From IMG/VR virus record IMGVR_UViG_3300032322_001781: a DNA stretch of 64,000 nucleotides; one strand, given 5' to 3'. The notes below the pieces were generated by a model. It had not been told where the DNA came from, did no database searches, and worked only from the letters and a program-made list of their open reading frames with translations. This stretch comes from a virus. Taxonomy: Duplodnaviria > Heunggongvirae > Uroviricota > Caudoviricetes. A program made the position numbers and the translations under genes. Shown piece by piece: positions 980 through 48,964 of this stretch. Position 1 is the first letter of the stretch; every line of letters starts with the position of its first letter.

Positions 980-1053
980 TGGCGTGTATCCGTAAAGGCA
1001 TTCGGTCCTCCCTCTTAAGGAGATTTATGTGGGTTCAACTCCCATCACGCCAA
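980..1053 (+). tRNA. tRNA-Lys (anticodon CTT) by manual fold
   Basis: Acceptor tggcgtg/cacgcca, anticodon loop ctCTTaa, T-arm gtggg-ttcaact-cccat; starts with T and 4-bp anticodon stem, so moderate confidence. Confidence 0.6.
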
Positions 1054-34085: not shown

Positions 34086-34379
34086 ATGAAGATAAATAAA
34101 AGTATATTGGATATGTCTGATGTGTATTGTAAACTATCTCATTTTGAAACTATTTGTTTTTTAGATGAATTACTTATTATGCAATATGAGTTAGAAGATT
34201 TATTAGATGAGTTAACAAATGATATGAATAATTCATCATTAATTGTTGAAATTGAAGGGGAAATAGCTTATCTTAAAGAAAACATAAGAGTTGTTGAAAA
34301 CGCTTTATTATGTCATGAATCAAAAATAACAAAAAGGTTCAGTATATCTGGTGAAATTAATTATATTTTTTTTAATTAA
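34086..34379 (+). CDS. hypothetical protein
   Basis: ORF. Confidence 0.4.
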   Translation: MKINKSILDMSDVYCKLSHFETICFLDELLIMQYELEDLLDELTNDMNNSSLIVEIEGEIAYLKENIRVVENALLCHESKITKRFSISGEINYIFFN

Positions 34380-34389
34380 CGTTTTGCAG

Positions 34390-34416
34390 CTATGCGCTCG
34401 TTTTAATGGCGCATAG
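34390..34416. repeat. hairpin with conserved loop TCGTTTTAATG (stem ctatgcgc/gcgcatag)
   Basis: Member of loop-conserved/stem-covarying hairpin family (see 43023, 44621, 44949, 44352). Confidence 0.6.
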
Positions 34417-34470
34417 GTGCTGTTATAAGTAGTTGCGGATTATTAGTAAAAACTTCAAAATAAAAAGAAA

Positions 34471-34680
34471 ATGATAGAAAATTTAAAAGCAAGATTTAAA
34501 GCCCAAAAGTATAATATTTGGACTGAACAGATTGACCCCAAAAGAAAAGCCGATAGTTGGTTTACTGGTTATTGGTATGCAAATGGTAAATTATACTATG
34601 GGCATCCTTTACTCATTTTCTTTTTATCATCACAAAATGATTGGTTTAAAGACAAATGTCCAAACGGAGACAAATGGTAG
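34471..34680 (+). CDS. hypothetical small protein
   Basis: ORF. Confidence 0.3.
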   Translation: MIENLKARFKAQKYNIWTEQIDPKRKADSWFTGYWYANGKLYYGHPLLIFFLSSQNDWFKDKCPNGDKW

Positions 34681-34687
34681 CAATTAC

Positions 34688-34783
34688 TTATAACGGTTGA
34701 GTGTATGAGTAGTGTGGCTTTGCACATACTTTCAACTAACAGATAAACTTATTTAGCCACATTACTTATACACTTTGTTATAG
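34688..34783. mobile_element. MITE-like palindromic element (TATAAC...GTTATA termini, ~30-bp imperfect TIRs)
   Basis: Start ttataacggttgagtgtatgagtagtgtggct vs reverse complement of end acctataacaaagtgtataagtaatgtggct. Confidence 0.55.
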
Positions 34784-35195
34784 GTATGTAAAACAACCGA
34801 TATGAAAAAGAAGATAATAATTTCAATTTTAGGATTATGTTTATTAATGGCAATACACGCTTCAATAAATATTTTCTTATTACATAGAGAAATGGAAAAG
34901 ACTATGATAATGATGCCAATATTTACAATGGTTTATATTGGATACATTCAAATAGTAATAAGAAAATATTTAAAGTTGTAGGTTGTTTTATTACTTATAA
35001 CGTTTTGCGTGTATATGTCAGGTGGCGATTAGAAGCACTACGCTTGATTATACCACAAAAGTTTGATAGAATAACAAATGTTGAATAAACCACAGAACCG
35101 CCACTTGCATATACACGCTGTTAGTTGCAGTTGCGGATATTACCACAGAACTTCAATCGAAGCACTAAGACATTTTTATTCTTTTTGTGCGGTTA

Positions 35196-35474
35196 CTAAA
35201 ATGTATCCATTAATGCACCCCAATTAGGACCGCTTGATACTGGCTCAACCTTTATACTATTAATATCAAGATGTCTAAAATTAGGTGATTTAATATCAAT
35301 AGTATTTAAATGTTTTTCAGCTTCTTCTTTACTATTATATAATAAATCAGTTAAATATAATGTACCACCTCTCGTGTCCTTTCCTATAATCCACCATTTT
35401 TTGCTTTCTTCTTCCTTAATAATCTGTTTTACTAAAGTTCTTAATTCATTTAAAATATTTTTTTTTGTTGCCAT
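35196..35474 (-). CDS. hypothetical protein (only convincing minus-strand gene; divergent from integrase)
   Basis: 92-aa ORF in repeat-dense integrase-proximal region. Confidence 0.45.
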   Translation of the reverse strand: MATKKNILNELRTLVKQIIKEEESKKWWIIGKDTRGGTLYLTDLLYNSKEEAEKHLNTIDIKSPNFRHLDINSIKVEPVSSGPNWGALMDTF

Positions 35475-35671
35475 AATATTTTATATTTACATATAAATAT
35501 GCAGAAAATTTGTTTTTTCAAAATTTTTTTAGTAATTTTGTGGTGTGGGGATAAAAAAAAGAATAAAAATGTTTCCATAAATGTTAAATTGGAAGATGAA
35601 CTTAGCAATTGCAACTAACTATTATATAGATGTACCTTTTTAAAACCAATTAATTATCAATGTTTTAGAAC

Positions 35672-36472
35672 ATGGAAAAAACAAATTATTACGAAATTTG
35701 TAAACAAAAATTGAAGTATTTGAACTATTCAGAAAAGACAATAACAAATTATCTTTTCCATATAAATCAGTTTTTGAATAATTCCAACGTATCTCCAACC
35801 AGATTACAATCCAAGGATTTTCAGTCATATTTGGATAACTATAAATTCAGCTCCACATCTCAACAGAACCAAATAATAAACTCAATTCGTTTTTTATATA
35901 AATTTGGGTTGAATAAGAAATACGACAAGGTTTCTTTCAAGAGACCAAAATCTGAGAAGAAACTACCTAGAGTAATTGATGGTGATTGCATAAAAGAAAG
36001 ATTGAGTAAGATTGAAAATCTAAAACATAAATCAATCCTAACTTTAACATATTCTGTTGGATTGAGAGTCTCTGAGGTTGTAAATTTAAAGATTGATGAT
36101 ATTGATTCCAAAAGAATGTTAATTCACATTAAAAACGCTAAAGGTAGAAAAGATAGAATAGTTCCCTTATCACCAAATGTTCTTAATTTGCTTAGAGAGT
36201 ACTTCAAAGAATATAGACCTTCCGAATATCTTTTTAATGGCCAGTTTTCTTCCCAGTATTCGATAGGTAGTTGCCAGAAAATATATAAGAAATATATTGA
36301 GAACGATGGACATATCCACACTCTTAGACATAGTTGTGCAACCAATCTATTGGAAAAAGGTACTGACCTAAAATTAATCCAGAAGATTTTAGGTCATTCA
36401 AGTGTTAAAACAACTGAAATATATACCCACGTTTCAAATCAATTATTAAGTAAAATTGAACTTCCTGTATAA
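35672..36472 (+). CDS. tyrosine recombinase / phage integrase (XerC/D family)
   Basis: C-terminal catalytic region LRHSCATNLLEKGTDLKLIQKILGHSSVKTTEIYTH (R..H-x-x-R...Y), upstream R (GLRVSE) box. Confidence 0.85.
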   Translation: MEKTNYYEICKQKLKYLNYSEKTITNYLFHINQFLNNSNVSPTRLQSKDFQSYLDNYKFSSTSQQNQIINSIRFLYKFGLNKKYDKVSFKRPKSEKKLPRVIDGDCIKERLSKIENLKHKSILTLTYSVGLRVSEVVNLKIDDIDSKRMLIHIKNAKGRKDRIVPLSPNVLNLLREYFKEYRPSEYLFNGQFSSQYSIGSCQKIYKKYIENDGHIHTLRHSCATNLLEKGTDLKLIQKILGHSSVKTTEIYTHVSNQLLSKIELPV

Positions 36473-36476
36473 TTTA

Positions 36477-36508
36477 TTTGGTAATATCAAATATTCTTCT
36501 TACCTTTG
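36477..36508 (+). promoter_or_regulatory. Bacteroidetes-type promoter
   Basis: TTTGG-N20-TACCTTTG. Confidence 0.6.
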
Positions 36509-36531
36509 TATCCTAATCAAAAACAATAACT

Positions 36532-36942
36532 ATGGAAAACATGACAGAACAAGAAATGGAATTTGAACGTCAAGAACGTGAACACCAAAGACTTGAAAAA
36601 GAAATTCGTGATGCCAAAGAAGTAATTGACACACTCGGAAATTACGTTAACTATAGGAGGTCTAGCAAAGCCTTTGCTGAAGCATTCAAACGTGAGCATC
36701 GCACCCTCCAACAATCAGCCTTTAAAATGTTCTTGGAACTAATGGAAGAAATGGCTACCGAAAACTATCATACAGATGGTCGTAACGAAGATAGCAAGAA
36801 GATGGCTAAAACACTCTTAAAAGGATTTCAACTGGCTAAAAAACAAGAATACATCGAACAAGGTGTCTCAGAACAACGTGCTGAAGAATACGTTACATTG
36901 GGTGATGGTGGCAAACCTAGTAGATATATCCGACATATATAA
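36532..36942 (+). CDS. hypothetical protein
   Basis: ORF. Confidence 0.45.
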   Translation: MENMTEQEMEFERQEREHQRLEKEIRDAKEVIDTLGNYVNYRRSSKAFAEAFKREHRTLQQSAFKMFLELMEEMATENYHTDGRNEDSKKMAKTLLKGFQLAKKQEYIEQGVSEQRAEEYVTLGDGGKPSRYIRHI

Positions 36943-36947
36943 AAAAA

Positions 36948-37289
36948 ATGAATAAAACTTACTTTCGTGTGTGCCACAAAGATTCCCTACAGGGACTTTG
37001 GTATGCTTTTAATGGTGAATTTACTGGACTTATCCATGATAAATTTAAATTCTGTAAAAACACAGAACTGAAAATGGATTTTGATATAGAATTAGTTGGT
37101 TGGCTGTCAGCAGTTGATTCCTTAGAGAAATTATATCATTGGTTTACAGAAGACGATATTCGTAAACTACAAGAACATGGTTGGTTTATCCATGAGTTTG
37201 AAGCTGTGGAAACAAAATTTTATGATAGGTTTCAACATCTAGTTATAAAACAAGATTCTTCACGAGTTATTAACATAATAGAAATTTAA
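36948..37289 (+). CDS. hypothetical protein
   Basis: ORF. Confidence 0.45.
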   Translation: MNKTYFRVCHKDSLQGLWYAFNGEFTGLIHDKFKFCKNTELKMDFDIELVGWLSAVDSLEKLYHWFTEDDIRKLQEHGWFIHEFEAVETKFYDRFQHLVIKQDSSRVINIIEI

Positions 37290-37293
37290 TATT

Positions 37294-37653
37294 TTGACAC
37301 GTATAAATGTTGGGATTCCACCAAAAGAATTAACAAAAAAACACCTCATTGCTGAACATCGTGAGATAAAACGCTTACCTAATTGTGTTTCAAAAGGTAA
37401 ATATAATTTAAAAGGGCAACCAAAAGAATTTACTTTAGGTACTGGTCATGTAAAGTTTTTCTATACTCGGTTAGGTTATCTTAGACAACGATATGAAGAA
37501 TTATACCAAGAATGTGTTGAACGTGGTATAAATGTTCAATATTATGGTAATGCTTGGGATAATGTTCCTGAACATCTAATGGGTAATTATATACCTACAG
37601 AAGAAGATAAACGAATAATAAGAGAACGAATAGCTGAAAGATTAGGAAAATAA
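37294..37653 (+). CDS. denV: pyrimidine dimer DNA glycosylase, T4 endonuclease V homolog
   Basis: Very close to T4 DenV: MTRIN.......L...HL.AE.RE..R........G.......F.LG.GHV.FFY..L.YL..R..EL..EC..RG.N. Confidence 0.85.
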   Translation: MTRINVGIPPKELTKKHLIAEHREIKRLPNCVSKGKYNLKGQPKEFTLGTGHVKFFYTRLGYLRQRYEELYQECVERGINVQYYGNAWDNVPEHLMGNYIPTEEDKRIIRERIAERLGK

Positions 37654-37654
37654 A

Positions 37655-37686
37655 TTTGGTAATCTTAAATTTATTTAATACCTTTG
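37655..37686 (+). promoter_or_regulatory. Bacteroidetes-type promoter
   Basis: TTTGG-N20-TACCTTTG. Confidence 0.6.
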
Positions 37687-37690
37687 CATT

Positions 37691-38071
37691 ATGGAAATAA
37701 ATTTAACACTATACGCTGTTCAAAACGAGAAAGGTCAATTTTTCAGAGCCAAAGGTTATAATGCTTCTGGTAGCACATGGGTTGATGATATAAACAAAGC
37801 CAAAATATATCCTAAGATTGGTGGGGCTAGAGGGACCATAACATGGTTTGCTAACAACTACCCAAAATTTCCAACGCTCAAATTACTTAAACTAACTGTT
37901 AGCAATGTTGAAGAATTGGATGAAACTGAACGTGTAAACAAAGCCAAAGCCAAGAAAAAACGTGAGGAAGCTGAACGTATGAAACGTCAAGCTGAAAGAG
38001 AAATGGAACAAGCCAAAAGACAATTGGCTGAGGCACAGGCAAAAATAAATAAATTGAAAAATAATGGATAA
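37691..38071 (+). CDS. hypothetical protein with KR/E-rich coiled-coil tail
   Basis: ORF. Confidence 0.45.
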   Translation: MEINLTLYAVQNEKGQFFRAKGYNASGSTWVDDINKAKIYPKIGGARGTITWFANNYPKFPTLKLLKLTVSNVEELDETERVNKAKAKKKREEAERMKRQAEREMEQAKRQLAEAQAKINKLKNNG

Positions 38072-38396
38072 ATCACAAATTAAAAAAGGTACGTATGTTC
38101 GTTGGACTGCCGACAGAATGTTTAAATCTTGGGATACTTATGGAATTATTACCAAAGTAACTGATAAAGAAGCCACCATTAAAACCTTTGATGATTTAAA
38201 GGAAACTACTATTTGTATTGAAGGTGAAGCCATGACAGAAGAAGTTAGATGTGTTAGTAAAATAGAAGTTCAAAAGTATATTGATAAAGCTATAATGAAA
38301 CTTAAACATCGTATTGATGAACTTGAACTGGAACATAAGGGGACTATTAGTTCTCTAAATGAGAAGATAAAATTCTTGGAAGAAACTACCTTATAA
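38064..38396 (+). CDS. hypothetical protein
   Basis: ORF. Confidence 0.4.
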   Translation: MDKSQIKKGTYVRWTADRMFKSWDTYGIITKVTDKEATIKTFDDLKETTICIEGEAMTEEVRCVSKIEVQKYIDKAIMKLKHRIDELELEHKGTISSLNEKIKFLEETTL

Positions 38397-38397
38397 A

Positions 38398-38429
38398 TTA
38401 GGTAATGTCAAAATAATTATTTACCTTTG
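38398..38429 (+). promoter_or_regulatory. promoter variant (-33 TTAG, -7 TACCTTTG)
   Basis: ttaggtaa-N20-tacctttg. Confidence 0.45.
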
Positions 38430-38433
38430 CATC

Positions 38434-38832
38434 ATGGATAAACTACAACTATTAGATAAGGTTAAAAATTTACCTAATCTCCAACAATCAGAAAAAGATA
38501 AAATTTTAGGTTGGGTCCAAGCTATGCCTAGTGGAGTAAGTAAAGTAAAACCATCAGTTTATAAAATTGGTGACGTTTTTCTTCACCCAATTTTTTTACA
38601 CCCTTACATCCTGCTTCAAAAAAAAAGAAATGAATGGATTTGTGGGTTACTGACTTCTGAATCAGAATGTAGTGAAATATTAGAACAATGTGAAAGTAGA
38701 TTTTTTGATGTTAATTATTTCACTAAGGTTATTTTTACTGCCAAAGAACCTATAGGTGCTTTTATGGCATCGTATGATAATAACATTCATCTAAAAAAAG
38801 TTTATAAACAACTTAAAGGAATTTTTAATTAA
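38434..38832 (+). CDS. hypothetical protein
   Basis: ORF. Confidence 0.45.
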   Translation: MDKLQLLDKVKNLPNLQQSEKDKILGWVQAMPSGVSKVKPSVYKIGDVFLHPIFLHPYILLQKKRNEWICGLLTSESECSEILEQCESRFFDVNYFTKVIFTAKEPIGAFMASYDNNIHLKKVYKQLKGIFN

Positions 38833-38835
38833 AAT

Positions 38836-39783
38836 TTGGTTTATTTTGGCATTATGAAAAAACAAGAACAAATAGAAGCTAAGAAAAATAAACCAATTGA
38901 AGTTGGTGATTTGGTCAAAGTTTCAACAAATTATTTTAAAACCGTAACCGAAACGGTAAAGGTTGGAAGGAAGAGAGAATTCATTAATAAGGAAGTTGAA
39001 AAAAAATTTACCTTTGAAGGAACTGTTCTAAAAATAGAGAACGATAAATACTATGTTAAGTTAAATAGTAAATCTGTTCCATATGAATTAAACGAAAAAT
39101 TACCTAGTAAACATACGGATAAAAACGAGAAATATTGTATTGCTGATATTTCAATAATTACACCTACTGTTTATGAATGTGGTGCTAATCCGTTCTGTAA
39201 AGAGAAAAGACGTATTTCTTTTTATAACCAAGACATTTGGCAAATTCTATTCAAAGCTGGTTATGGTAAAATAACTGACGACTATTCTAAGCTTGAATCT
39301 ACCGAAGATTTTGGTTACGTAAACTTTAACCCATTCATTATTGATGCTAATGGAAATCGTCAATATTATCAACGTGACCTTGTATGGACACTTGAACAAA
39401 AACAATTACTAATTGACAGCATCTACCAAAATATTGAAATTGGTAAATTTTTATTCCGTTATAATTCTTGGGAAAGAATGCAACTAGAAAAAAAAGAAAC
39501 AGGTGTAGGTCATGGTTGGGATTGTGTTGATGGTAAACAACGATTCTTTGCTATTGTCGAATTTTTACAAAACAAATTCCAAGATAACTATGGTAATTAT
39601 TGGAAAGATTTGAGTGCTAATGCACAGCGTAGATTTCTAAACTTTCCGAATTTATCTTATGGAGAGTTACCAGAAACAGCAAGTGATGAAGATGTTATTG
39701 ATAATTTTTTAACACTTAATTTTACGGGCACACCAATGTCACGTGACCATATTGAGTATGTTAAATCATTTAACATGAAATAA
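38836..39783 (+). CDS. DUF262 (ParB/GmrSD-N-like nuclease domain) protein
   Basis: C-terminal half: YYQRDLVWTLEQKQLLIDSI ... VDGKQRFFAIVEF matches DUF262 FQR..VW...Q...L.DS / DGQQR signature. Confidence 0.6.
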   Translation: MVYFGIMKKQEQIEAKKNKPIEVGDLVKVSTNYFKTVTETVKVGRKREFINKEVEKKFTFEGTVLKIENDKYYVKLNSKSVPYELNEKLPSKHTDKNEKYCIADISIITPTVYECGANPFCKEKRRISFYNQDIWQILFKAGYGKITDDYSKLESTEDFGYVNFNPFIIDANGNRQYYQRDLVWTLEQKQLLIDSIYQNIEIGKFLFRYNSWERMQLEKKETGVGHGWDCVDGKQRFFAIVEFLQNKFQDNYGNYWKDLSANAQRRFLNFPNLSYGELPETASDEDVIDNFLTLNFTGTPMSRDHIEYVKSFNMK

Positions 39784-39784
39784 A

Positions 39785-39816
39785 TTTGGTAATATCAAAT
39801 TTATTTCATACCTTTG
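39785..39816 (+). promoter_or_regulatory. Bacteroidetes-type promoter driving ORF-free structured region
   Basis: TTTGG-N20-TACCTTTG followed by TCACGTTCATTGA. Confidence 0.6.
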
Positions 39817-39821
39817 TATCA

Positions 39822-40080
39822 CGTTCATTGATAAACAACTTTGGCTCGGTAAAGCCTCTTGCGAAAGCAACGTAACCGATGCCGTAGATATTAGGATAGG
39901 GGTTATGCTGGCTGATTACGTTATCTGCCCGATAATGAATGCTCAACCATAAGTTTCCAAACTTCCCCGATTCCTATTAACATGATTAGAGTTTGGAAAC
40001 CGAATACGTGCCAGTATTTGATTAGCGTTTGGTTGGGAAAAGGTAAAATCGGAAAGTGGGGAGGATAGACCTCCCCATAA
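39822..40080 (+). ncRNA. candidate structured ncRNA (~260 nt), unknown family
   Basis: No ORF; higher GC than flanks; internal stems (gtttccaaac...gtttggaaac); ends with GC hairpin ggggag-N-ctcccc. Confidence 0.5.
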
Positions 40081-40102
40081 TCCTTTAAAATTAAAAATTA
40101 AA

Positions 40103-40435
40103 ATGATAAATATGCAAAAAAATCCTACACTGGAGGATATGTTTATAGATAAATTACGTGATATTTTTTCTCTTAAGAAAAAGAAAATTAATGTTGGTGA
40201 TTATGGGGTTTATCAAGATGTATTATCTATAGATACAATAAACGATGGTACACATTCACTTAAATATGACATATACACCAAAGTTAAAGCCGTTGCTATC
40301 TATCAAAATTTGGTTGAAATAGAAATAGTTGAAATATTTACCATAAATTCTTGTAATCAAGATGTTAGGGAATTGATTGAAAAAAACATGCCAAAGTACA
40401 TTCACCCTAAATACATAAGATGGGAGATAAAATAA
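40103..40435 (+). CDS. hypothetical protein
   Basis: ORF. Confidence 0.45.
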   Translation: MINMQKNPTLEDMFIDKLRDIFSLKKKKINVGDYGVYQDVLSIDTINDGTHSLKYDIYTKVKAVAIYQNLVEIEIVEIFTINSCNQDVRELIEKNMPKYIHPKYIRWEIK

Positions 40436-40445
40436 GTTTTTAAAC

Positions 40446-40658
40446 ATGTTAATTCAATTCAAAAAATTAAAGTGTAATATATTTGGTCATTCGTGGCTTT
40501 ACAATTTCCCAGTTATGGCGAATAAAAGAATTTGTAAAACTTGTAATACAAAAATGGTGTTAAACTTAAAAGAAGCTAAGTGGTATGAAATAGATAGCTT
40601 CAACCCAATATTAGGGACTGATAAAGAAATTAAAAAACGTTGGATAAGTTTTAAATAA
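40446..40658 (+). CDS. hypothetical Zn-ribbon-like small protein
   Basis: C..H ... CKTC pattern. Confidence 0.35.
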   Translation: MLIQFKKLKCNIFGHSWLYNFPVMANKRICKTCNTKMVLNLKEAKWYEIDSFNPILGTDKEIKKRWISFK

Positions 40659-40678
40659 AATAATTTTTAAGTGTTACA

Positions 40679-40975
40679 ATGAAAACAAAGCTTTTAAAAA
40701 AACTTCATAAGACATATGATTGGTACTTTAATTCAGATGGGTTTCCAGTACTGATAAATCACGTTAAACAATCTGTTATATTATACGATGTGGAATACTT
40801 ATGCCAAAGAATGAAATATAAGGTGGAAGACCTACCAACGTTGGTAAAAGTTCATCATACCGAATGGGCATTGAGAATGATGAAATTGGATATCCTACAA
40901 GAATATGGCTGGGATATGTCACGTGTCAGATATAAACAAGCTATAAAAAGATTTAAACAAAAAAGAAACAAATAA
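40679..40975 (+). CDS. hypothetical protein
   Basis: ORF. Confidence 0.4.
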   Translation: MKTKLLKKLHKTYDWYFNSDGFPVLINHVKQSVILYDVEYLCQRMKYKVEDLPTLVKVHHTEWALRMMKLDILQEYGWDMSRVRYKQAIKRFKQKRNK

Positions 40976-41007
40976 TTTGGTAAATTCAAAATTTATTCGT
41001 ACCTTTG
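40976..41007 (+). promoter_or_regulatory. Bacteroidetes-type promoter
   Basis: TTTGG-N20-TACCTTTG. Confidence 0.6.
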
Positions 41008-41214
41008 TATCACTAAAATAAAAAAATATGGTATTAAAAACTAGTCTAAAAATTCTAGCTGTTTTGTTCCTTCTCTATGTGAGTTGGTATGTATTCAGTT
41101 TTTTCTCAGCATGGGGTGGAATAGCAATTATTGTTGCTACCCTAATAGGTGTCGGTGTCTACCTAGAAAATGTCATCAAAAATAATTTTAAATAAAAACA
41201 AAAAAAAAACAAAA

Positions 41215-42027
41215 ATGAAAAAAAGCATCCTATCGATTCTTAGCGTAATCACACTAGCAATGTTTATGCAATCATGTGACACCGTACAACCTAACTATGT
41301 TGGTGTACTAATGACAAATTTTGGTAAAAATGGAAAATCAGATTTCGAACTGGTCAAAGGAAGGGTACCCACATATTCGCCAGGGACACAACTCTATCAA
41401 GTGCCTTTGTTTGAACAACGTGCAAATTTTGGTGACCAAACGTTACATTTAAAAGCAGCTGACAATACAGAATTTACAGCAAAACCACTCTACTCTTATC
41501 AAGTAATTGAGGAACGTTCTGTAGACGTAGTATTTCAAAATGCTCGTTTGGGTAGTGGTTCTGAATTCATTAAATCATTAGAAGACAATGTACTTGAACC
41601 ACATATCTATGATATAATTAAAGAAGAAAGCCGTAAATACATTACTGATTCTCTAATGGCTAATGGAGGTTCGTTAAAATTTGAAGAAAGAGTACAAACT
41701 TTGGTTATTAAATCTTTTGAACAAAAGGGTTTGAAATTAATATCTTTTAGTTGTAACCTAGATTTTTCTGCTAAAGTAAAAGAAAAGATTGATAATCGTA
41801 ACGAAGTAAACACCAACTTATCAGTTCTGGACCAACAAATTCAAGAACAAAGAAAAAAGAACGAACTAGCAGAACTCAAAGCACAAGAAAATATCATATT
41901 ATCAAGAGGCTTGACAGATGAAATTTTAAGAAAAACAGCAATTGATGGATGGGTTAAAAATGGTTGCCCAACCCCTCAAGTTGTCGGAAGCGATTCAAAA
42001 ACGTTTTATAACCTTGTTACCAAATAA
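41215..42027 (+). CDS. lipoprotein, possible SPFH/band-7 domain
   Basis: Signal peptide + lipobox (LAMFMQSC); track ORF start 41170 is upstream of likely Met 41215; preceded by unlisted 55-aa membrane ORF 41029..41196. Confidence 0.5.
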   Translation: MKKSILSILSVITLAMFMQSCDTVQPNYVGVLMTNFGKNGKSDFELVKGRVPTYSPGTQLYQVPLFEQRANFGDQTLHLKAADNTEFTAKPLYSYQVIEERSVDVVFQNARLGSGSEFIKSLEDNVLEPHIYDIIKEESRKYITDSLMANGGSLKFEERVQTLVIKSFEQKGLKLISFSCNLDFSAKVKEKIDNRNEVNTNLSVLDQQIQEQRKKNELAELKAQENIILSRGLTDEILRKTAIDGWVKNGCPTPQVVGSDSKTFYNLVTK

Positions 42028-42047
42028 AACAAATATTAAACAAATAA

Positions 42048-42077
42048 AAAACCTTACCAATTGGTGAGGTTTTTTTA
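42048..42077 (+). terminator. rho-independent terminator
   Basis: aaccttacc-aatt-ggtgaggtt + T run. Confidence 0.7.
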
Positions 42078-42086
42078 CTATTTTAA

Positions 42087-42434
42087 ATGGAAATTAAAAA
42101 AATTGATTATGATTTGGTTCAAAAAGAATTTGCTGAATTAAAACCAGATTTATTAGATAATTATGCCACATATTATGGTTGTTTTATTAAAGATGAGTTA
42201 GTTGGCATTGTTTCTTATGTTGAACACCCACATGTGATTTATCTATGTCACGCTTACGTTAAAGATAGTTTTAGAAATAGAGGAATTTACAAATTACTTT
42301 GGAATTACCGAGATTCAAAAATTAAAGAAACGAATAAAATTGTTTATGCTCACTGTAATGTTGATAGTTTAAAATACTTCATAAACAATGGTTACTCAAT
42401 TGAAAAAGCTTTATTTAAAGTAGTTAAAAATTAA
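42087..42434 (+). CDS. GNAT-family acetyltransferase (putative)
   Basis: Motif A-like FRNRGIYKLL after beta-strand VGIVSYV. Confidence 0.5.
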   Translation: MEIKKIDYDLVQKEFAELKPDLLDNYATYYGCFIKDELVGIVSYVEHPHVIYLCHAYVKDSFRNRGIYKLLWNYRDSKIKETNKIVYAHCNVDSLKYFINNGYSIEKALFKVVKN

Positions 42435-42441
42435 AAAAAAA

Positions 42442-42639
42442 ATGGCATTAATTAGAAAGGAAATCTTAGTTGAAGTTAAAGTTGGTGACGTAGTTAAAGC
42501 ACCTAATACGATATATCGTGATGATTTAACACTATATGTTTGTCATATAGAAGATGATTTACTTTACATTTCTGATGAAATTAACACACCTAAAAAAGGG
42601 TGCGAAACATCATTTGTTGAAGATTGTTATTTAGTATAG
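42442..42639 (+). CDS. hypothetical small protein
   Basis: ORF. Confidence 0.35.
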   Translation: MALIRKEILVEVKVGDVVKAPNTIYRDDLTLYVCHIEDDLLYISDEINTPKKGCETSFVEDCYLV

Positions 42640-42660
42640 ACAATAATTTTTGTTTAATTG

Positions 42661-42812
42661 CCTATAACGTTTTGCAGATAGGCGATGTGGCGGATTTTGG
42701 AACACAAAACTTTCTGCAACCACTAAAATTAATTTGAAAACGAAAACTTAATATTAACCGAGAACCCCGCCTTATTGCCTATGTGCTGTTATAGGTAGGG
42801 CTTCTCACAAAT
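42661..42812. mobile_element. MITE-like palindromic element (TATAAC termini)
   Basis: gcctataacgttttgcagataggcgatgtggcgg vs reverse complement of end gccctacctataacagcacataggcaataaggcgg. Confidence 0.5.
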
Positions 42813-42821
42813 TTTTATAAA

Positions 42822-43004
42822 ATGACAAAAGCAGAATTACTCGAAATTATTAAAGATTATCCCGATGATGTGGATTTGGTTTTTACACAGGAAACGGAAA
42901 GACAAGCTGGCGATGTGTCAGATATGTATTTAGACCACTTGACTGAATGCAAGGCGTTCAATTATATCAATCTTTATTTCAAATGGACTGATGTTGGGGA
43001 ATAG
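42822..43004 (+). CDS. hypothetical small protein
   Basis: ORF. Confidence 0.35.
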   Translation: MTKAELLEIIKDYPDDVDLVFTQETERQAGDVSDMYLDHLTECKAFNYINLYFKWTDVGE

Positions 43005-43011
43005 CTTTACC

Positions 43012-43072
43012 TATAACGTCCGATGATAAACAATCGTTTTAATGTTGTTTATCATTTGTTATGTGTAGGTGT
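43012..43072. repeat. 60-nt intergenic repeat copy 1 (contains hairpin gataaacaa-TCGTTTTAATG-ttgtttatc)
   Basis: Near-identical copies at 44610 and 44937, each directly after a small ORF stop. Confidence 0.8.
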
Positions 43073-43103
43073 TTTTTTATTGCGAAAAATAAATATATAA
43101 ATT

Positions 43104-43424
43104 ATGGAAAGAAAAAGAATTAGAAATTTTGAAACATTTACAAATTCATCAATAATTAAAAGGATTAGAAATATTTATTCTAAATTTATGAATATTGAAC
43201 TTTTTGATATGAGTGATAGTAATGACTATGATATTATATGGGAAGGTGGTTTATTAACAGATGAAAAATATAAACAATTCATCAAAAAGTTAGAAGATGA
43301 ATTTGGAATATCAATACTTGATGAAGTATGGAATGATGAAGAAGGTTTCAAAGATTTAACAGATGATAAATATAGAACATTTAATGGGTTAGGAGAATAT
43401 ATTTATTCACAAACGAATTCTTAA
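43104..43424 (+). CDS. hypothetical protein
   Basis: ORF. Confidence 0.4.
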   Translation: MERKRIRNFETFTNSSIIKRIRNIYSKFMNIELFDMSDSNDYDIIWEGGLLTDEKYKQFIKKLEDEFGISILDEVWNDEEGFKDLTDDKYRTFNGLGEYIYSQTNS

Positions 43425-43435
43425 CACTTACACAT

Positions 43436-43563
43436 AACGGCTGACGCTATACGAAGGCAGGGGTTGGATGCACACCCTTTCAGCCTTACACAAATGATAA
43501 ATAGATGCACACCGCTTGTATTAGCAGTAAAGCCCCTGCTTTTGTATAGCGTATGTTATAGGG
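43436..43563. mobile_element. MITE-like palindromic element (TATAAC termini)
   Basis: ataacggctgacgctatacgaaggcagggg vs reverse complement of end ataacatacgctatacaaaagcagggg; overlaps spurious N-terminus of track ORF 43464. Confidence 0.55.
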
Positions 43564-43580
43564 CGTTTATTTTAGTTAAA

Positions 43581-43859
43581 ATGGAAATTAAAAACATACA
43601 CGAACACGCAGGGTGGTTTGCTTCATATATGAATGCTCCCGATGGCGGTAATGATGCACAAGGTGAGGCTCTTGTTAAATGTCAAATCAAAAAAATAAAA
43701 CAGTTGACCGAATTAATAGAAAATATTAAAGGTGAAATAGAACTCACTGACAATCCAAAGGAGTTTTCGGAAAGAACTGTTTTAAATTCAATTAAAGCAA
43801 TGATTGAACAAAAGAAAGAAGTTGAACATACGAGTGGTTATTTTAAGTGGGTTGGCTAA
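43581..43859 (+). CDS. hypothetical protein (start re-assigned to Met 43581)
   Basis: Track ORF 43464..43859 begins inside palindromic repeat; MEIKNIHEH start follows it. Confidence 0.4.
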   Translation: MEIKNIHEHAGWFASYMNAPDGGNDAQGEALVKCQIKKIKQLTELIENIKGEIELTDNPKEFSERTVLNSIKAMIEQKKEVEHTSGYFKWVG

Positions 43860-43910
43860 ATGCCCTATAACGGTCACAGATAAATGTAGTTTTAACAAAA
43901 ACTTAATAAA

Positions 43911-44126
43911 ATGGAAAAAGATAATAACAAAGTTGATAATTGGGATGAATATAATGAAAAATTACATTTATCTGATGTTATGTTTAGTATTTTCACACTT
44001 GATGAAATAAGGACAATTATAAAACATAGACAATTTAGAGGAATGAAAACTCTACAAATGTCAAAAGATAAACAAGATGAGTTTAGAGAAATAATTAAAA
44101 AAATCGAAGATATGTTTGATGTGTAA
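43911..44126 (+). CDS. hypothetical small protein
   Basis: ORF. Confidence 0.35.
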   Translation: MEKDNNKVDNWDEYNEKLHLSDVMFSIFTLDEIRTIIKHRQFRGMKTLQMSKDKQDEFREIIKKIEDMFDV

Positions 44127-44351
44127 AAATATTGAACATAACGGTTGCAAATATATGTTGTTTAATAAAAAATTAAAAATATGTTTATTACATTGAATTA
44201 CATTTGGAATAACTACTGGAAGACAGTAAAGCGAGGAAAACCTAATATGAGAGCATTTTTAATTTTTTTACGAATGCTTGGTTTGGAATTAAAATGTTTA
44301 TTATTAACGGGATATTCAACAGATGAAATACTTAAATAACATATATTTGCT

Positions 44352-44380
44352 GTTATAAAATCGTTTTAATATTTTATAAC
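44352..44380. repeat. hairpin gttataaaa-TCGTTTTAAT-attttataac followed by TATAACGGTTGCAAATAT box
   Basis: Same loop as 34398 and 43032 hairpins with a different stem; TATAACGGTTGCAAATAT also at 44136. Confidence 0.6.
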
Positions 44381-44609
44381 GGTTGCAAATATGAGAAGTA
44401 AAATTTTCCTTTAAAATTTTTTATTTCAAAATTTATTTCTTATATTTGTTGTTATAAATACGTAATTTAAAATACACACAATATGAAAAAAATTAATTCA
44501 ATTTACAAGAAATCAGTTTGAAACAAAACCTTTTGGTGGAATAGTTGGTATATCTATAATCTTAATTTTTTCACTATTAATGATTTTAGGTGTATTTTAA
44601 ATTATTGTT

Positions 44610-44660
44610 TATAACGTCCGATGATAAACAATCGTTTTAATGTTGTTTATCATTTGTTAT
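44610..44660. repeat. 60-nt intergenic repeat copy 2
   Basis: tataacgtccgatgataaacaatcgttttaatgttgtttatcatttgttat. Confidence 0.8.
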
Positions 44661-44726
44661 ACACAGTATTTTTGTGGGAGGGTTGATAAATTAGAAATAA
44701 ATTAGTATATTTGTAAAAAACTGAAT

Positions 44727-44942
44727 ATGGATAATAATAGAAATAAGGTACATTGTTTAGTATATGATTATACTGGTGACACTAATAATGTTTATGTAAG
44801 AGTTTCAAAAGTTCACGAAGTAGATGAAAATGTTTATCTTAAAATACAGAACCCTGTTGTGAATAAAGGGTTACTTCAATATCAACATAAAGATTTATGT
44901 GGTACTGGTTGGGATGAGGGTGAAAAAAAATATTGTGTATAA
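44727..44942 (+). CDS. hypothetical small protein
   Basis: ORF. Confidence 0.35.
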   Translation: MDNNRNKVHCLVYDYTGDTNNVYVRVSKVHEVDENVYLKIQNPVVNKGLLQYQHKDLCGTGWDEGEKKYCV

Positions 44943-44998
44943 CGTCCGATGATAAACAATCGTTTTAATGTTGTTTATCATTTGTTATGTGTAGGTGT
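44937..44998. repeat. 60-nt intergenic repeat copy 3
   Basis: Identical to copy 1 including gtgtaggtg tail. Confidence 0.8.
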
Positions 44999-45225
44999 GG
45001 ATTAATAATAAAAAATATAATAAAATAGAATAAAATGAATGAACAAGAAATGCGTGAATACTTAAAAGGTAAATCTCAAGAAGAAGTTAGGGATTTTATT
45101 ATTGATAGGTTAAAGAAAATCTGTGAAGAAGGTGAAAAATTATCTGTTAATGATGAAGATTACGAAAAGGCTGGTGAATTACTTAAAATTAAAAACAGAT
45201 TAAAGTGATGAATGTAACACTTACA

Positions 45226-45320
45226 CATAACGGTTGGGTGTATGAGAAGGTTTGCTTAGATGAACTTTCAAATTACCACTGAACTTAATAGCAAACTTTC
45301 TTATACACCTTGTTATAACC
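45226..45320. mobile_element. MITE-like palindromic element (TATAAC termini)
   Basis: ataacggttgggtgtatgagaaggtttgct vs reverse complement of end ataacaaggtgtataagaaagtttgct; same architecture as 34688 copy. Confidence 0.55.
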
Positions 45321-45474
45321 AGTACGGATAAATTAGCACTGAACTTGATACGAAGAACGAATAAAAACTTTTTAAAAATGTGCGGTGGAAAACTTGATTA
45401 ATTTAAAAATAAGTAGTATATTTGTAATATCATAATAATAAAATAATAAACTAATAAACTAAAAAATTAAACAA

Positions 45475-46068
45475 ATGGCAAAATTTATTGAAACAATTTA
45501 TCCAACTATTGAAGATAGAGTAAGTAGATGGGAAACAATGGGAATGTTACATATAGTTAAATCTGATGATTCTAAAAAATTGGTAGCGATGGCACTTGAT
45601 GCAACTGCAATATATCTTACAGAATTTAATTTTAAAAATTTTGATAACGATACAAAAACGGTTTTAATACCAGTAATTGTAAGAATTTTCAACGAAACAA
45701 ACAAAGATTTCACATTAGAAACATTAACTAAATCAGTTAGAAGAATAATTGAAGATTTTGTGGAAAAATATGAAGAAGCAAAACCTAAGTTTAACCCATT
45801 AACTTCCGAAAGAGATGATGATGCTGAATTTATTGCGTTATATTGCGAAAACTATTCTTTTGATGAAAACAAAATTAAAATTAAATTTAAAATTACATTT
45901 TGGAAAGATATTCCAGAAAGAACATTTATAATTGATGATACCAACTTCTTTCCAAAATATTTTATGGGGTTGGATGGTATTTTATATGAAAATTATGGAA
46001 CAGAGGAAAAACCAATGTGGGAAAATGTTTTTGATAGTGACTATGAGATTGAAATTGTTAATCTTTAA
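45475..46068 (+). CDS. hypothetical protein
   Basis: ORF. Confidence 0.45.
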   Translation: MAKFIETIYPTIEDRVSRWETMGMLHIVKSDDSKKLVAMALDATAIYLTEFNFKNFDNDTKTVLIPVIVRIFNETNKDFTLETLTKSVRRIIEDFVEKYEEAKPKFNPLTSERDDDAEFIALYCENYSFDENKIKIKFKITFWKDIPERTFIIDDTNFFPKYFMGLDGILYENYGTEEKPMWENVFDSDYEIEIVNL

Positions 46069-46195
46069 GGTGGGAAATTTTTAAAAAGTTTTCCTCACAG
46101 AACTTAAATATGGAACACGAATGTAGTATTGGTTATAACGTAAAAGTATTGGCGATGTTGGGGATTAAAGAGTACAAATGTTTAAATAACAACAA

Positions 46196-46621
46196 ATGAT
46201 AGTAAAAAGCACAAATGTTCAAATTAAGAACGAAAGCCCCAATATTGCCAATGCAGTGTTAGGTGCAGTTACATTCCCGAAGCGTAACACCCGTTTCAAA
46301 TTAAAAGACTTCTTTCAAGTGGAAGTTGATGATTTTCATAGTGGGGAATTTCTATTTTTGTCGGCTAAAAAAGTCAAAACAAAAAGTGATAAAAAGCTAT
46401 TTGATGAAGTAGAAAGTTTTGATGAATATGGATGGATAATAAGCACTTGGTGCTATGACCGTAAATATTACTACAAAATTTTTGTTTGCCAATACCGACA
46501 AAAAGCGTGGAAAAATCATTACCACATTGAAAGTATGTTGGCAGGATTAAACGGGTGTGATGGTTATGCAGTAAATAACACTATTGAGGAATTTGCTGAA
46601 TGGATGGAAGTGTCGCAGTAA
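46196..46621 (+). CDS. hypothetical protein
   Basis: ORF. Confidence 0.45.
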   Translation: MIVKSTNVQIKNESPNIANAVLGAVTFPKRNTRFKLKDFFQVEVDDFHSGEFLFLSAKKVKTKSDKKLFDEVESFDEYGWIISTWCYDRKYYYKIFVCQYRQKAWKNHYHIESMLAGLNGCDGYAVNNTIEEFAEWMEVSQ

Positions 46622-46765
46622 TTGCACCTAACGAGTATATATACACACCTATAGTCTAACCCATTTAAAATCAATATTTTGAACCAAAAAATTATAAAGA
46701 TTTGTGAACAAAAGTTTATATATTTAAACTAATCAGATAAGAGTATTAGGTTATATGCTTCTTAC

Positions 46766-46796
46766 TTTGAAATATCAAAATTTATTCGTACCTTTA
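46766..46796 (+). promoter_or_regulatory. promoter variant (-7 TACCTTTA)
   Basis: TTTG-N19-TACCTTTA. Confidence 0.4.
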
Positions 46797-46807
46797 TAAA
46801 AAACAAA

Positions 46808-48895: not shown

Positions 48896-48964
48896 AGTAG
48901 AATCGTCTAATTGGTAGGGCGCATCAGGAAAGGTGAAATTTAGGTTCGACTCCTAGTTCTACTA
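48896..48964 (+). tRNA. tRNA-like element (short, ~69 nt) with T-arm ttagg-ttcgact-cctag and D-loop-like aattggtag
   Basis: Perfect 7-bp acceptor agtagaa/ttctact, D-stem gtct/gggc, but no canonical anticodon arm (loop ggaaagg lacks U33). Confidence 0.35.

What the first reader, a model, noticed from the sequence alone, without database searches (positions are those of the whole stretch)
34390..44977. Hairpin family with conserved loop TCGTTTTAAT(G) and covarying stems
Five hairpins share the 10-11-nt loop TCGTTTTAATG but have three different, fully compensated stems. The stems are ctatgcgc/gcgcatag (34390), gataaacaa/ttgtttatc (43023, 44621, 44949; within a 60-nt repeat placed right after small-ORF stops) and gttataaaa/attttataac (44352). 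Loop conservation with stem covariation is the signature of a functional recognition element. It could be a sequence-specific protein-binding site in RNA (terminator, antiterminator or processing signal) or in DNA (cruciform target).
Basis: seen in the sequence. Interest (0 to 1): 0.65.

Follow-up and report, generated by a model that had tools for sequence, protein, structure and literature searches.

The report
Phage gene-cassette junction hairpins, integron-like
The five hairpins are real and belong to a widespread family of folded junction sites that separate small mobile gene cassettes in Bacteroidota phages, in arrays that end next to a Xer-like recombinase gene, which looks like an undescribed phage counterpart of the bacterial integron.

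Summary
TCGTTTTAAT occurs 5 times, all on the + strand (0.66 expected), capping three different compensated stems. The hairpins are part of something larger. A pattern scan found more than 120 viral-contig loci with the same invariant 11-nt loop on more than 30 different stems; 11 of 12 stem pairs covary. Each hairpin sits between two invariant boxes, (A/C)TAAC and GTTA(T/G). The decisive result: the ~11 nt before each TAAC pair with the ~11 nt after the previous element's GTTA, across the intervening ORF (4.0 of 5 complementary; own flanks 1.7, which is random). Homology between relatives breaks at TAAC (19 cases) and never at GTTA. In 80 loci the arrays lie directly upstream of a co-oriented 266-aa Xer/IntI-clade recombinase gene and stop at a conserved half-site, TAAC|TAnnATATA. 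The window holds two such arrays. Near-identical cultured Polaribacter phages (Freya_1 to _10) differ by cassettes bounded exactly by AAC boxes next to their integrase. Best reading: attC-like sites of an integron-like platform. The recombinase lacks the IntI insertion and ORFs point towards it, so this is not a canonical integron. Catalysis and the role of the invariant loop remain inferred. Main rival: RNA punctuation hairpins.

The parts
34377..34425 (+).
34691..34780 (+). Element B, 90-nt class: same TAAC-GGTT foot, 21-pair stem, 35-nt centre
34998..35123 (+). Element C, 125-nt class; starts the last cassette of array 1, which carries a minus-strand ORF at 35196-35474
35615..35640 (+). attI-like half-site 1: CTAAC|TATTATATAGATGTACC, 52 nt upstream of the recombinase ATG. 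Its 5' flank GCAATTGCAAC pairs with GTTGCAGTTGC after element C
35672..36472 (+). 266-aa tyrosine recombinase of the Xer/IntI clade, without the IntI-specific insertion
42665..42791 (+). Element D, 125-nt class, first element of array 2
43014..43061 (+).
43435..43558 (+). Element F, 125-nt class, 22-pair stem
43868..43980 (+). Element G. Its centre holds the ATG of ORF 43911-44126, and its 3' arm and GTTA lie in coding sequence
44139..44355 (+). Element H. Arms ATAACGGTTGCAAATATAT / ATATATTTGCTGTTAT enclose the whole 52-aa ORF 44181-44339
44352..44380 (+). The loop here caps the inverted-repeat side of cassette H, between H's GTTA and I's TAAC
44377..44454 (+). Element I, 21-pair stem
44612..44659 (+).
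44940..44987 (+). The stop codon of ORF 44727-44942 lies in its TAAC box
45228..45315 (+). Element L, 90-nt class
46136..46261 (+). Element M; its centre holds the ATG of ORF 46196-46621
46628..46655 (+). attI-like half-site 2: CTAAC|GAGTATATATACACACC. Its 5' flank GTAATTGCACC pairs with GGTGCAGTTAC after element M
46681..46735 (+). Remnant of the 5' end of a second recombinase gene (..KIIKICEQKFIYLN*); it aligns with the start of the recombinase gene in L172 and L197

Best explanation
The hairpins are the central folded part of attC-like recombination sites that separate mobile gene cassettes in an integron-like platform carried by Bacteroidota phages.

Site anatomy. A full site reads: 5' box (..AATTGCnnA-TAAC), G plus 3-4 unpaired nt, an arm of 12 bp or more, an apical cap, arm', T, and the 3' box (GTTA-TnnGnAGTT..). 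The cap is either the invariant 11-nt loop or a longer centre.

Exchange unit (shown). The unit runs from one TAAC to the next: TAAC|[G-hairpin-GTTA - inverted repeat - leader and ORF - inverted repeat' - TAAC]|. Its two ends are therefore complementary across the ORF.

Circular form (inferred). If a cassette circularises, the ends join into one rod of about 30 bp. One end of the rod carries the ORF loop and the other the 11-nt cap. This would explain why the same loop is found inside the hairpins and, in a few cassettes, between GTTA and the next TAAC.

Array ends (shown). Arrays end at a half-site, TAAC|TAnnATATA, placed 42-52 nt upstream of a Xer/IntI-clade tyrosine recombinase gene. Terminal cassettes turn over there.

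Still inferred. That this recombinase catalyses insertion and excision, probably on folded single strands with one strand exchange inside TAAC. That the hairpin supplies the second recombinase-binding helix. What the invariant loop does is unknown.
For: Family and structure:
Covariation is formal.
- An element caller found 835 elements in three size classes (~50, ~90, ~125 nt), mostly with a 4x1 or 5x1 internal loop.

Cassette signature:
- The 5 nt before TAAC of element i+1 complement the 5 nt after GTTA of element i: mean 4.02 of 5, 222 of 468 perfect. Own-element flanks score 1.73, equal to random (1.71).
- The A/C:T/G position next to the boxes also pairs across the ORF (88%) and not within the element (58%).
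- Complementarity runs over d0-d10, with an obligatory T opposite G (312 of 437) and never A at d6.
- Homologous ORF modules in different contexts break 8 + 11 times at TAAC and 0 times at GTTA.

Link to the recombinase:
- In 80 recombinase loci, loops are 105 on + versus 3 on -, all 0-7 kb upstream of the gene and essentially none (2 of 105) in the 10 kb downstream. TAACGK density is 1.4-1.7 per kb upstream versus 0.1 downstream. Called elements are 409 on + versus 9 on -.
- The conserved half-site sits at a fixed distance from the ATG.
- Of 18 locus pairs with near-identical half-site and recombinase gene, 11 lose homology within 38 nt upstream of the half-site, 7 of them exactly at its TAAC.
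- The arrangement holds at 45% recombinase identity.

The window: two arrays, each ending in a half-site with matched inverted repeats. One is followed by the recombinase gene, the other by a remnant of one.

Cultured phages:
- Freya_10 versus Freya_1 is a 4942-nt insertion bounded by ..AAC| boxes.
- Freya_6 equals Freya_5 plus one 472-nt cassette inserted at the integrase-proximal AAC.
- Freya_9 lacks the last cassette.
- Danklef shares a 1.17-kb block at 99.6% identity, bounded by boxes.

Folding: reconstructed circular-form sites fold at -20.3 and -23.7 kcal/mol, versus -11.0 and -13.4 for the array forms.

Cap on the inverted-repeat side: 10 cases, 6 of them behind bodies of 217-449 nt that enclose ORFs.
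Against: - No biochemistry and no circular intermediate has been observed.
- All 80 recombinase loci come from one broad lineage, so part of the association could be conserved synteny.
- Only about 20% of hairpin-selected loci have a recombinase homolog within 5-8 kb.
- The recombinase may simply be a lysogeny integrase and the half-site its attP.
- In Freya the boxes abut (AAC|GTT) without a hairpin body, so the hairpin may not be needed for recombination.
- All elements are co-oriented with transcription, and conserved G.T wobbles would fit an RNA role equally well.
- The invariant loop is not explained by the model.
- Rare chimeric hairpins broken at the loop (L061, L116) need a second process.
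Confidence: 0.6

Rival explanations
1. RNA punctuation. The hairpins act in the polycistronic early transcript as processing, stability or insulation signals. The model would be T7 RNase III sites or the T4 C(UUCG)G intercistronic hairpins. A phage or host protein would read the conserved loop. Cassette shuffling would be a by-product of homologous recombination between repeated regulatory modules, as proposed for T4-type PeSLs, and the integrase would be an unrelated lysogeny gene.
For: - Every element is co-oriented with the flanking genes and lies between a stop codon and the next ATG.
- G.T pairs outnumber A.C mismatches on the given strand, 144 versus 34, and there are conserved G.U-type positions.
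- Some centres enclose start codons (G and M; the 125-nt class).
- The ~15-nt stems that enclose each ORF could be RNase III substrates.
- The phage encodes an RNase II/R homolog.
- About 80% of hairpin loci lack a nearby integrase.
- In Freya, recombination boxes work without hairpin bodies.
Against: - An RNA role does not explain homology breaks exactly at TAAC and never at GTTA.
- It does not explain the TAAC half-site at a fixed distance from the recombinase gene, with flanks matched to the last cassette.
- It does not explain the Freya indels with only AAC shared at the joints; 3 nt is too little for homologous recombination.
- The last cassette of array 1 carries a minus-strand ORF, yet its sites keep array polarity.
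- A solo copy lies antisense at the end of a TetR gene in a Winogradskyella chromosome.
- There are no T-runs and no Rfam match.
Confidence: 0.2
2. Single-strand transposition by an HUH (IS200/IS605-type) enzyme, or MITE-like elements. Units would be cut 3' of the tetranucleotide TAAC next to a guide hairpin and move as single-stranded circles. The tyrosine recombinase would be a bystander.
For: - Cleavage or joining happens 3' of a fixed tetranucleotide next to an imperfect hairpin, with strict strand polarity. From my own knowledge, this resembles IS608, which inserts 3' of TTAC.
- Solo copies occur in bacterial contigs.
Against: - No HUH transposase turned up among the window proteins scanned, although that scan was incomplete.
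- The recombinase was the most recurrent of the window proteins with homologs in the element loci.
- Units have one hairpin, not two subterminal ones.
- Arrays are head-to-tail and end at a site tied to the recombinase gene.
Confidence: 0.05
3. Chance, or a recent local duplication with no function.
For: Three of the five window copies are one 60-80-nt repeat.
Against: - 0.66 matches are expected.
- Hundreds of copies occur in unrelated contigs with an invariant loop and more than 30 compensated stems.
Confidence: 0.01

Closest known systems
Integrons (IntI, attI, attC gene-cassette arrays; CALINs)
   Same: - A tyrosine recombinase gene lies next to a primary site and a head-to-tail array of small, mostly ORFan cassettes.
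- The sites are imperfect palindromes of 50-130 nt with only AAC and GTT invariant.
- They have an outer helix, an unpaired asymmetric spacer, an inner helix and a variable apex.
- The crossover falls inside the conserved triplet.
- Cassette ends are complementary across the ORF, and turnover is concentrated at the recombinase-proximal site.
- Arrays without a recombinase gene are common.
   Different: - The recombinase lacks the IntI-specific insertion and aligns end-to-end with archaeal XerA.
- The RYYYAAC and GTTRRRY consensus pair is met in 4 of 653 sites.
- The crossover is at the box on the 5' side in ORF orientation, so the hairpin travels with the downstream ORF.
- ORFs point towards the recombinase gene, and the array lies upstream of it.
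- The outer helix is about 15 bp with a fixed T.G position.
- The smallest site class has an invariant 11-nt apex.
- The host is a phage.
attC clusters reported in phages (Qi et al. 2023, PMC9892861)
   Same: Phage genomes, including one Polaribacter phage, carry attC-like sites and cassette-like ORFs.
   Different: That study used IntegronFinder and HattCI to find canonical attC sites, and tested them with IntI1. It does not describe this box and hairpin family, the Xer-like recombinase or the half-site.
PeSL mobile regulatory cassettes of T4-type phages (Arbiol et al. 2010, cited from memory)
   Same: Repeated stem-loop modules flank small ORFs in hyperplastic phage regions and are linked to modular shuffling.
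   Different: PeSLs are a terminator-like stem-loop plus an early promoter, thought to act through homologous recombination without a dedicated recombinase. Here the joints share only TAAC, and the arrays end at a recombinase-linked site.
Xer/dif and pdif modules of Acinetobacter plasmids (from memory)
   Same: A Xer-clade recombinase is involved. Modules are bounded by short sites of alternating orientation. The Freya integrase-proximal site looks like an 11-7-11 dif-type core, ATTGTTGCTAA-CACCCCT-ATAACAACAAT.
   Different: pdif sites are 28-bp duplex sites used by the host XerC and XerD. Here the arms are separated by a 40-120-nt hairpin, and the enzyme is element-encoded.
T4 C(UUCG)G intercistronic hairpins and T7 RNase III sites (from memory)
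   Same: These are phage intercistronic hairpins. The T4 type has a conserved loop on variable stems. The T7 type has an upper stem, an asymmetric internal loop and a lower stem.
   Different: Those act in RNA, have no boxes that mark DNA exchange points and have no recombinase link. An 11-nt loop has no special thermodynamic stability.

Membership tests
Integron | Integron integrase: a tyrosine recombinase with the IntI-specific additional domain | tested here: not met
   Versus IntI4 (2a3v), the query aligns in two blocks; query residues 178-208 stand where IntI4 has 181-259. It aligns end-to-end with XerA (4a8e) at 2e-37. TIGR02249 scores 159.6 bits against a cut-off of 265, split into 2 stretches.
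Integron | Recombinase gene adjacent to a primary site (attI) at one end of the cassette array | tested here: met
   The half-site TAAC|TAnnATATA lies 42-52 nt upstream of the ATG in most of 68 distinct loci. The array is confined to the upstream side. Homology breaks at this TAAC in close relatives.
Integron | attC sites with R'' = RYYYAAC and R' = GTTRRRY | tested here: not met
   AAC and GTT are invariant (by construction, since the pattern and the caller required them), but the full consensus is met on both sides in only 4 of 653 distinct sites. IntegronFinder and HattCI were not available.
Integron | Folded imperfect palindrome: R helix, unpaired spacer, L helix, variable terminal structure | tested here: met
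   A 5-bp helix (15 bp in the circular form), a 4x1 or 5x1 internal loop, an arm of 12 bp or more, and an apex of 11 to about 180 nt.
Integron | Crossover within the conserved core triplet; the cassette start is complementary to its own site across the ORF | tested here: met
   Freya joints share only AAC.
Integron | Promoterless cassette ORFs that read away from intI and are expressed from Pc | tested here: not met
   ORFs read towards the recombinase gene. Some cassettes carry Bacteroidetes-type promoter-like motifs.
Integron | Recombination of one folded single strand, resolved by replication | not testable with these tools
   Only indirect hints: 3-nt joints, fixed wobble positions, and folding energies.
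Rho-independent terminator | G+C-rich stem followed directly by a T/U run | tested here: not met
   None of the elements was called in 42600-46800. Stems are A+T-rich, and the sequence after GTTAT is not T-rich.
Known RNA families (Rfam 15) | Match to a curated covariance model | tested here: not met
   Only tRNAs at the gathering threshold. No hit at an element at E<=1.
T4-type PeSL | Stem-loop directly followed by an early promoter, flanking hyperplastic-region ORFs | tested here: inconclusive
   Some elements are followed by TTG..TAnnTTTG promoter-like motifs (J and L); others are not. Transcription was not mapped.
IS200/IS605 / PATE | Y1 HUH transposase and subterminal hairpins at both ends | tested here: inconclusive
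   No HUH domain in the ~45 window proteins scanned, but the scan was incomplete. Units have one hairpin.
Xer/dif-type duplex core site | Two ~11-bp inverted arms around a 6-8-bp central region | tested here: inconclusive
   Visible at the Freya integrase-proximal site as 11-7-11. Not evident in the window's half-sites.

The most novel reading that the evidence does not exclude
Bacteroidota phages, from 40-kb siphoviruses to phages of several hundred kb, carry a previously unrecognised gene-capture platform that works like an integron but evolved around a Xer-like recombinase without the IntI domain. Cassettes would leave as single-stranded rods closed by an invariant 11-nt cap, and would be inserted at a TAAC half-site just upstream of the recombinase gene. 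This would give phages a dedicated machine for swapping small accessory genes, possibly anti-defence genes.
Probability: 0.45. Interest if true: 0.9.

Novelty: new variant of a known kind. Interest (0 to 1): 0.8.

Why it matters
Integrons are the only established system that captures genes through folded single-stranded sites, and they are regarded as bacterial.

- A second platform, built on a different branch of tyrosine recombinases and resident in phages, would show that this solution evolved more than once, or spread far beyond IntI.
- It would offer a mechanism for the notorious plasticity of phage hyperplastic regions.
- It would supply a sequence signature (TAAC..GTTA sites with cross-ORF inverted repeats) for delimiting thousands of mobile phage ORFans.
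- It is directly testable, because the Freya isolates and their Polaribacter host were cultured and described (Bartlau et al. 2021).

Tried and rejected
- Chance or simple duplication: rejected.
- Host-wide repeat of the REP type: rejected. Only 21 single-copy hits in 185,579 species genomes, mostly MAG contigs.
- Intrinsic terminator or known RNA family: rejected.
- My first parse, 'ORF followed by its own hairpin, flanks extend the hairpin': rejected. Own flanks pair at the random level.
- Crossover at the loop, suggested by the chimeras L061 and L116: not the main route, since breaks fall at TAAC.
- Crossover at GTTA: 0 cases.
- Inversion between the inverted boxes: rejected. 105 versus 3 loops and 409 versus 9 elements are on one strand.
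- A conserved accessory gene between array and recombinase gene: the minus-strand ORF 35196-35474 is not conserved.
- Close cultured relative of the window phage: none; best recombinase identity is 42%.
- Cassette ORF function: no Pfam hit for 10 ORFs.
- Literature: four searches on the system and one on the loop sequence found no description of this system. The one hit on the loop string is a PCR primer.
- Gapless breakpoint mapping around loop-type elements gave few informative pairs.
- A loose regex for the half-site gave many chance hits.

Full report
**1. The observation**

TCGTTTTAAT occurs exactly five times in the window (34398, 43034, 44361, 44632, 44960), always on the + strand. Dinucleotide shuffles give 0.66 matches, and none of 100 shuffles reaches five. 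Three copies lie in one 80-nt direct repeat (D4), so the window contains three independent stems. The 44361 copy ends in A rather than G. Each hairpin is longer than reported: an outer ATAAC/GTTAT helix, a 4-nt bulge on the 5' side against 1 nt on the 3' side, a 12-bp arm, and the 11-nt loop.

**2. A large family outside the window**

I scanned IMG/VR with the pattern ATAAC G-N8-30-TCGTTTTAAT-N8-30-GTTAT.
- The loop is invariant, while the arms fall into more than 30 unrelated, mutually compensated pairs.
- On 34 distinct 50-nt members, 94.6% of cells pair (70.5% in shuffles), 144 cells are changed on both sides (44 expected), and 11 of 12 arm pairs show compensatory change. One T-A pair in the arm never varies.
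- In 185,579 bacterial and archaeal species genomes the pattern occurs only 21 times, as single copies and mostly on MAG contigs of Bacteroidota. It is a phage element, not a host repeat.
- Copies also occur in 460-636-kb uncultured phages.

The window itself looks like a large Bacteroidota phage. It has tRNAs, MnmA, NAMPT and an RNase II/R homolog, all genes are on one strand, and its promoter repeats are of the TTTG / TAnnTTTG type.

**3. The hairpins are one class of a composite junction element**

Nine further sites in the window share the same foot, (A/C)TAAC-G-NNN-arm ... arm'-T-GTTA(T/G). In place of the 11-nt loop they have centres of 35 to about 180 nt.

An element caller applied to 221 loci plus the window found 835 elements (593 distinct). 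Sizes fall at about 50, 90 and 125 nt, mostly with a 4x1 or 5x1 internal loop. The longer centres are family-specific. Some contain the start of the downstream ORF. One, element H, encloses a whole 52-aa ORF.

**4. The cassette signature**

The sequence outside the boxes does not extend the local hairpin. The 5 nt before TAAC and the 5 nt after GTTA of the same element are complementary at the random level (1.73 versus 1.71 of 5).

Instead, the 5 nt before TAAC of element i+1 complement the 5 nt after GTTA of element i, across the intervening ORF.
- The mean is 4.02 of 5, and 222 of 468 pairs are perfect.
- The polymorphic A/C and T/G bases that touch the boxes behave the same way: 88% Watson-Crick across the ORF, 58% within the element.
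- Complementarity runs for about 11 positions. At position 6 a T always faces G (312 of 437), T or C, and never A.

The flanks were not used to call the elements, so this result is independent of the caller.

When the same ORF module occurs in different contexts, homology ends 8 times at the TAAC of the preceding hairpin, 11 times at the TAAC after the module, and never at GTTA. The exchange unit is therefore TAAC|[G-hairpin-GTTA - repeat - ORF - repeat' - TAAC]|.

This logic is what I recall being used to define integron cassettes and their crossover point (from memory, not checked here).

**5. The recombinase link**

ORF 35672-36472 is a 266-aa tyrosine recombinase (phrog_1, 3.3e-46).
- It aligns end-to-end with archaeal XerA. 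It aligns with IntI4 only in two blocks, because it lacks the IntI-specific insertion. The catalytic motifs are present.
- It is the most recurrent window protein in the hairpin loci, where it is always co-oriented with the array and downstream of it.

In the reciprocal test, 209 viral contigs encode relatives. In the 80 loci kept:
- 105 loops lie on the recombinase strand and 3 on the other.
- All lie 0-7 kb upstream, and essentially none (2 of 105) lie in the 10 kb downstream.
- TAACGK density drops from 1.4-1.7 per kb upstream to 0.1 per kb downstream.

Every array ends 42-52 nt before the recombinase ATG in a conserved half-site, (A/C)TAAC|TA-nn-ATATA. The 5' flank of this half-site matches the repeat of the last cassette.

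Among 18 locus pairs with near-identical half-site and recombinase gene, 11 lose homology within 38 nt upstream of the half-site; 7 of these break exactly at its TAAC. Terminal cassettes therefore turn over at this site.

The window contains two complete examples:
- Array 1: elements A-C, half-site at 35615, and the recombinase gene.
- Array 2: elements D-M, half-site at 46628, followed by only the first ~18 codons of a second recombinase gene.

Such remnants are frequent elsewhere.

**6. Cultured phages**

The nearest cultured relatives carry recombinases that are 33-42% identical. [quoted passage not shown] The paper describing them treats the gene only as a marker of a temperate lifestyle (PMC8776804).

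Freya_1 to Freya_10 are about 100% identical except for 0-4.9 kb of small ORFs directly upstream of the integrase.
- Freya_10 versus Freya_1 is one 4942-nt insertion. It is bounded by TTGTTTAC-AAC| and TTGTTGCT-AAC|, with only AAC shared.
- Freya_5 joins box TTGTTACC-AAC directly to the integrase-proximal sequence.
- Freya_6 is Freya_5 plus a unique 472-nt cassette inserted at exactly that point.
- Freya_9 lacks exactly the last cassette.
- Danklef shares a 1.17-kb block at 99.6% identity, bounded by boxes on both sides.

Three nucleotides of identity are too few for homologous recombination. In Freya the boxes abut (AAC|GTT) without a hairpin body, which cautions against assuming that the hairpin is essential for recombination.

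**7. What the hairpin and its loop may do (inferred)**

If a cassette circularises, its two ends and the hairpin form one continuous rod. Reconstructed circular-form sites fold at -20.3 and -23.7 kcal/mol, against -11.0 and -13.4 for the array forms. The rod has two apices.
- In most cassettes the ORF occupies the apex on the repeat side and the 11-nt loop caps the hairpin.
- In 10 cases the loop caps the repeat side instead (GTTAT-nnnn-loop-nnnn-ATAAC).
- Six of those ten follow bodies of 217-449 nt that enclose ORFs. Only 5% of other bodies reach 150 nt.

This accounts for the loop appearing in two contexts. It also suggests the loop works as an autonomous cap, not at a fixed distance from the crossover. 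Why it is invariant is not explained. Possibilities include a loading or priming signal on the single strand, a polarity mark in an otherwise near-palindromic site, or a separate RNA role.

**8. Rivals**

An RNA punctuation role is the main alternative, at about 0.2.
- For it: co-orientation with genes, conserved wobble pairs, centres that hold start codons, and many hairpins far from any recombinase gene.
- Against it: it does not explain the TAAC-only breakpoints, the half-site tied to the recombinase gene, the 3-nt joints in Freya, the minus-strand ORF inside a correctly polarised cassette, or an antisense solo copy in a Winogradskyella chromosome.

The two roles are not mutually exclusive.

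An HUH-type single-strand transposon remains formally possible but has no candidate enzyme.

**9. Comparison and novelty**

The system works like an integron but fails membership on three tested defining features:
- the IntI domain;
- the RYYYAAC and GTTRRRY consensus, met on both sides in 4 of 653 sites;
- cassette orientation relative to the recombinase gene.

Qi et al. 2023 reported canonical attC clusters in some phages, but not this family. Five literature searches (four on the system, one on the loop sequence) found no description of it. I class it as a new variant of a known kind.

**10. Caveats**

Everything rests on comparative sequence analysis. The 80 recombinase loci belong to one broad lineage. 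Catalysis by this recombinase, use of single strands, and any function of the loop are inferences.

Noticed in passing
window 32925, 36478, 37656, 38393, 39786, 40977, 45394, 46766, 47414 (+ strand): A strongly conserved ~50-nt repeat, TTTGGTAAATTCAAAATTTATTCGTACCTTTGTATCAC, sits in front of many genes (families D1-D3). It matches the Bacteroidetes -33 TTTG / -7 TAnnTTTG promoter layout but is conserved well beyond it, which suggests a phage-specific promoter class.
   Followed up: no
window 980-1053, 2452-2563, 48896-48964: Rfam calls three tRNAs that ARAGORN does not. The one at 2452-2563 is 112 nt long and may contain an intron or a long insertion.
   Followed up: no
window 23021-25039, 10944-12566, 2580-3704, 37294-37653, 38836-39783: The phage encodes an RNase II/R homolog (RNB, 1e-112), NAMPT, the tRNA thiolase MnmA, a pyrimidine-dimer glycosylase and a protein with a GmrSD N-terminal domain.
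   Followed up: no
L135 4576-4626 (Winogradskyella aurantia contig2): A solo 51-nt loop-type element lies in a bacterial chromosome with no recombinase in the 6 kb held. It is antisense to both neighbours, and the stop codon of a TetR-family gene lies in the reverse complement of its loop. This hints that the bare hairpin unit can insert on its own.
   Followed up: partly
L061 6297-6346, L116 974-1023, L012 ~2868-2930, L115 ~4950-5010: Rare chimeric elements have 5' and 3' arms from different families, joined at the 11-nt loop, or combine a cap-type left half with a hairpin-type right half. This points to occasional recombination or template switching at the loop itself.
   Followed up: partly
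L142-L221 (table): Many recombinase genes lie within 0.1-2 kb of a contig end, on the side where the array should be. This suggests that assemblies break inside the repeat-rich arrays, and that array sizes are underestimated.
   Followed up: no
L205 1233, 13621, 18351; L011 2835; L057 758: Several half-sites are followed only by a short remnant of the recombinase 5' end (..TTTAAAGATTTGT..). Three occur in one 19.5-kb locus that also has a full gene. The half-site plus gene start seems to be duplicated or moved with cassettes.
   Followed up: partly
window 34430-34470, 35125-35170, 45317-45365, 46080-46135; many loci: A conserved leader module follows the sites, GTTAT-AAGTAGTTGCGGATTATTAAC-(N)-AAACTTAAT-(4-25 nt)-ATG. 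A related AACTTTCAA..AACTTAAT motif sits in the centres of the 90-nt class. Part of it is the cassette inverted repeat. The AACTTAAT part is unexplained and may be a promoter or a translation signal.
   Followed up: partly
L222/L226-L228 (Polaribacter phages Freya_5, 6, 9, 10), just downstream of the integrase: In Freya and Danklef an HNH endonuclease gene directly follows the integrase gene. No counterpart was found after the window's recombinase gene.
   Followed up: no
window 44484-44600: A short hydrophobic reading frame (..KPFGGIVGISIILIFSLLMILGVF*) has no in-frame ATG, GTG or TTG start, and follows a 12-codon ATG ORF in another frame. It may be a frameshifted or decayed cassette gene.
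   Followed up: no
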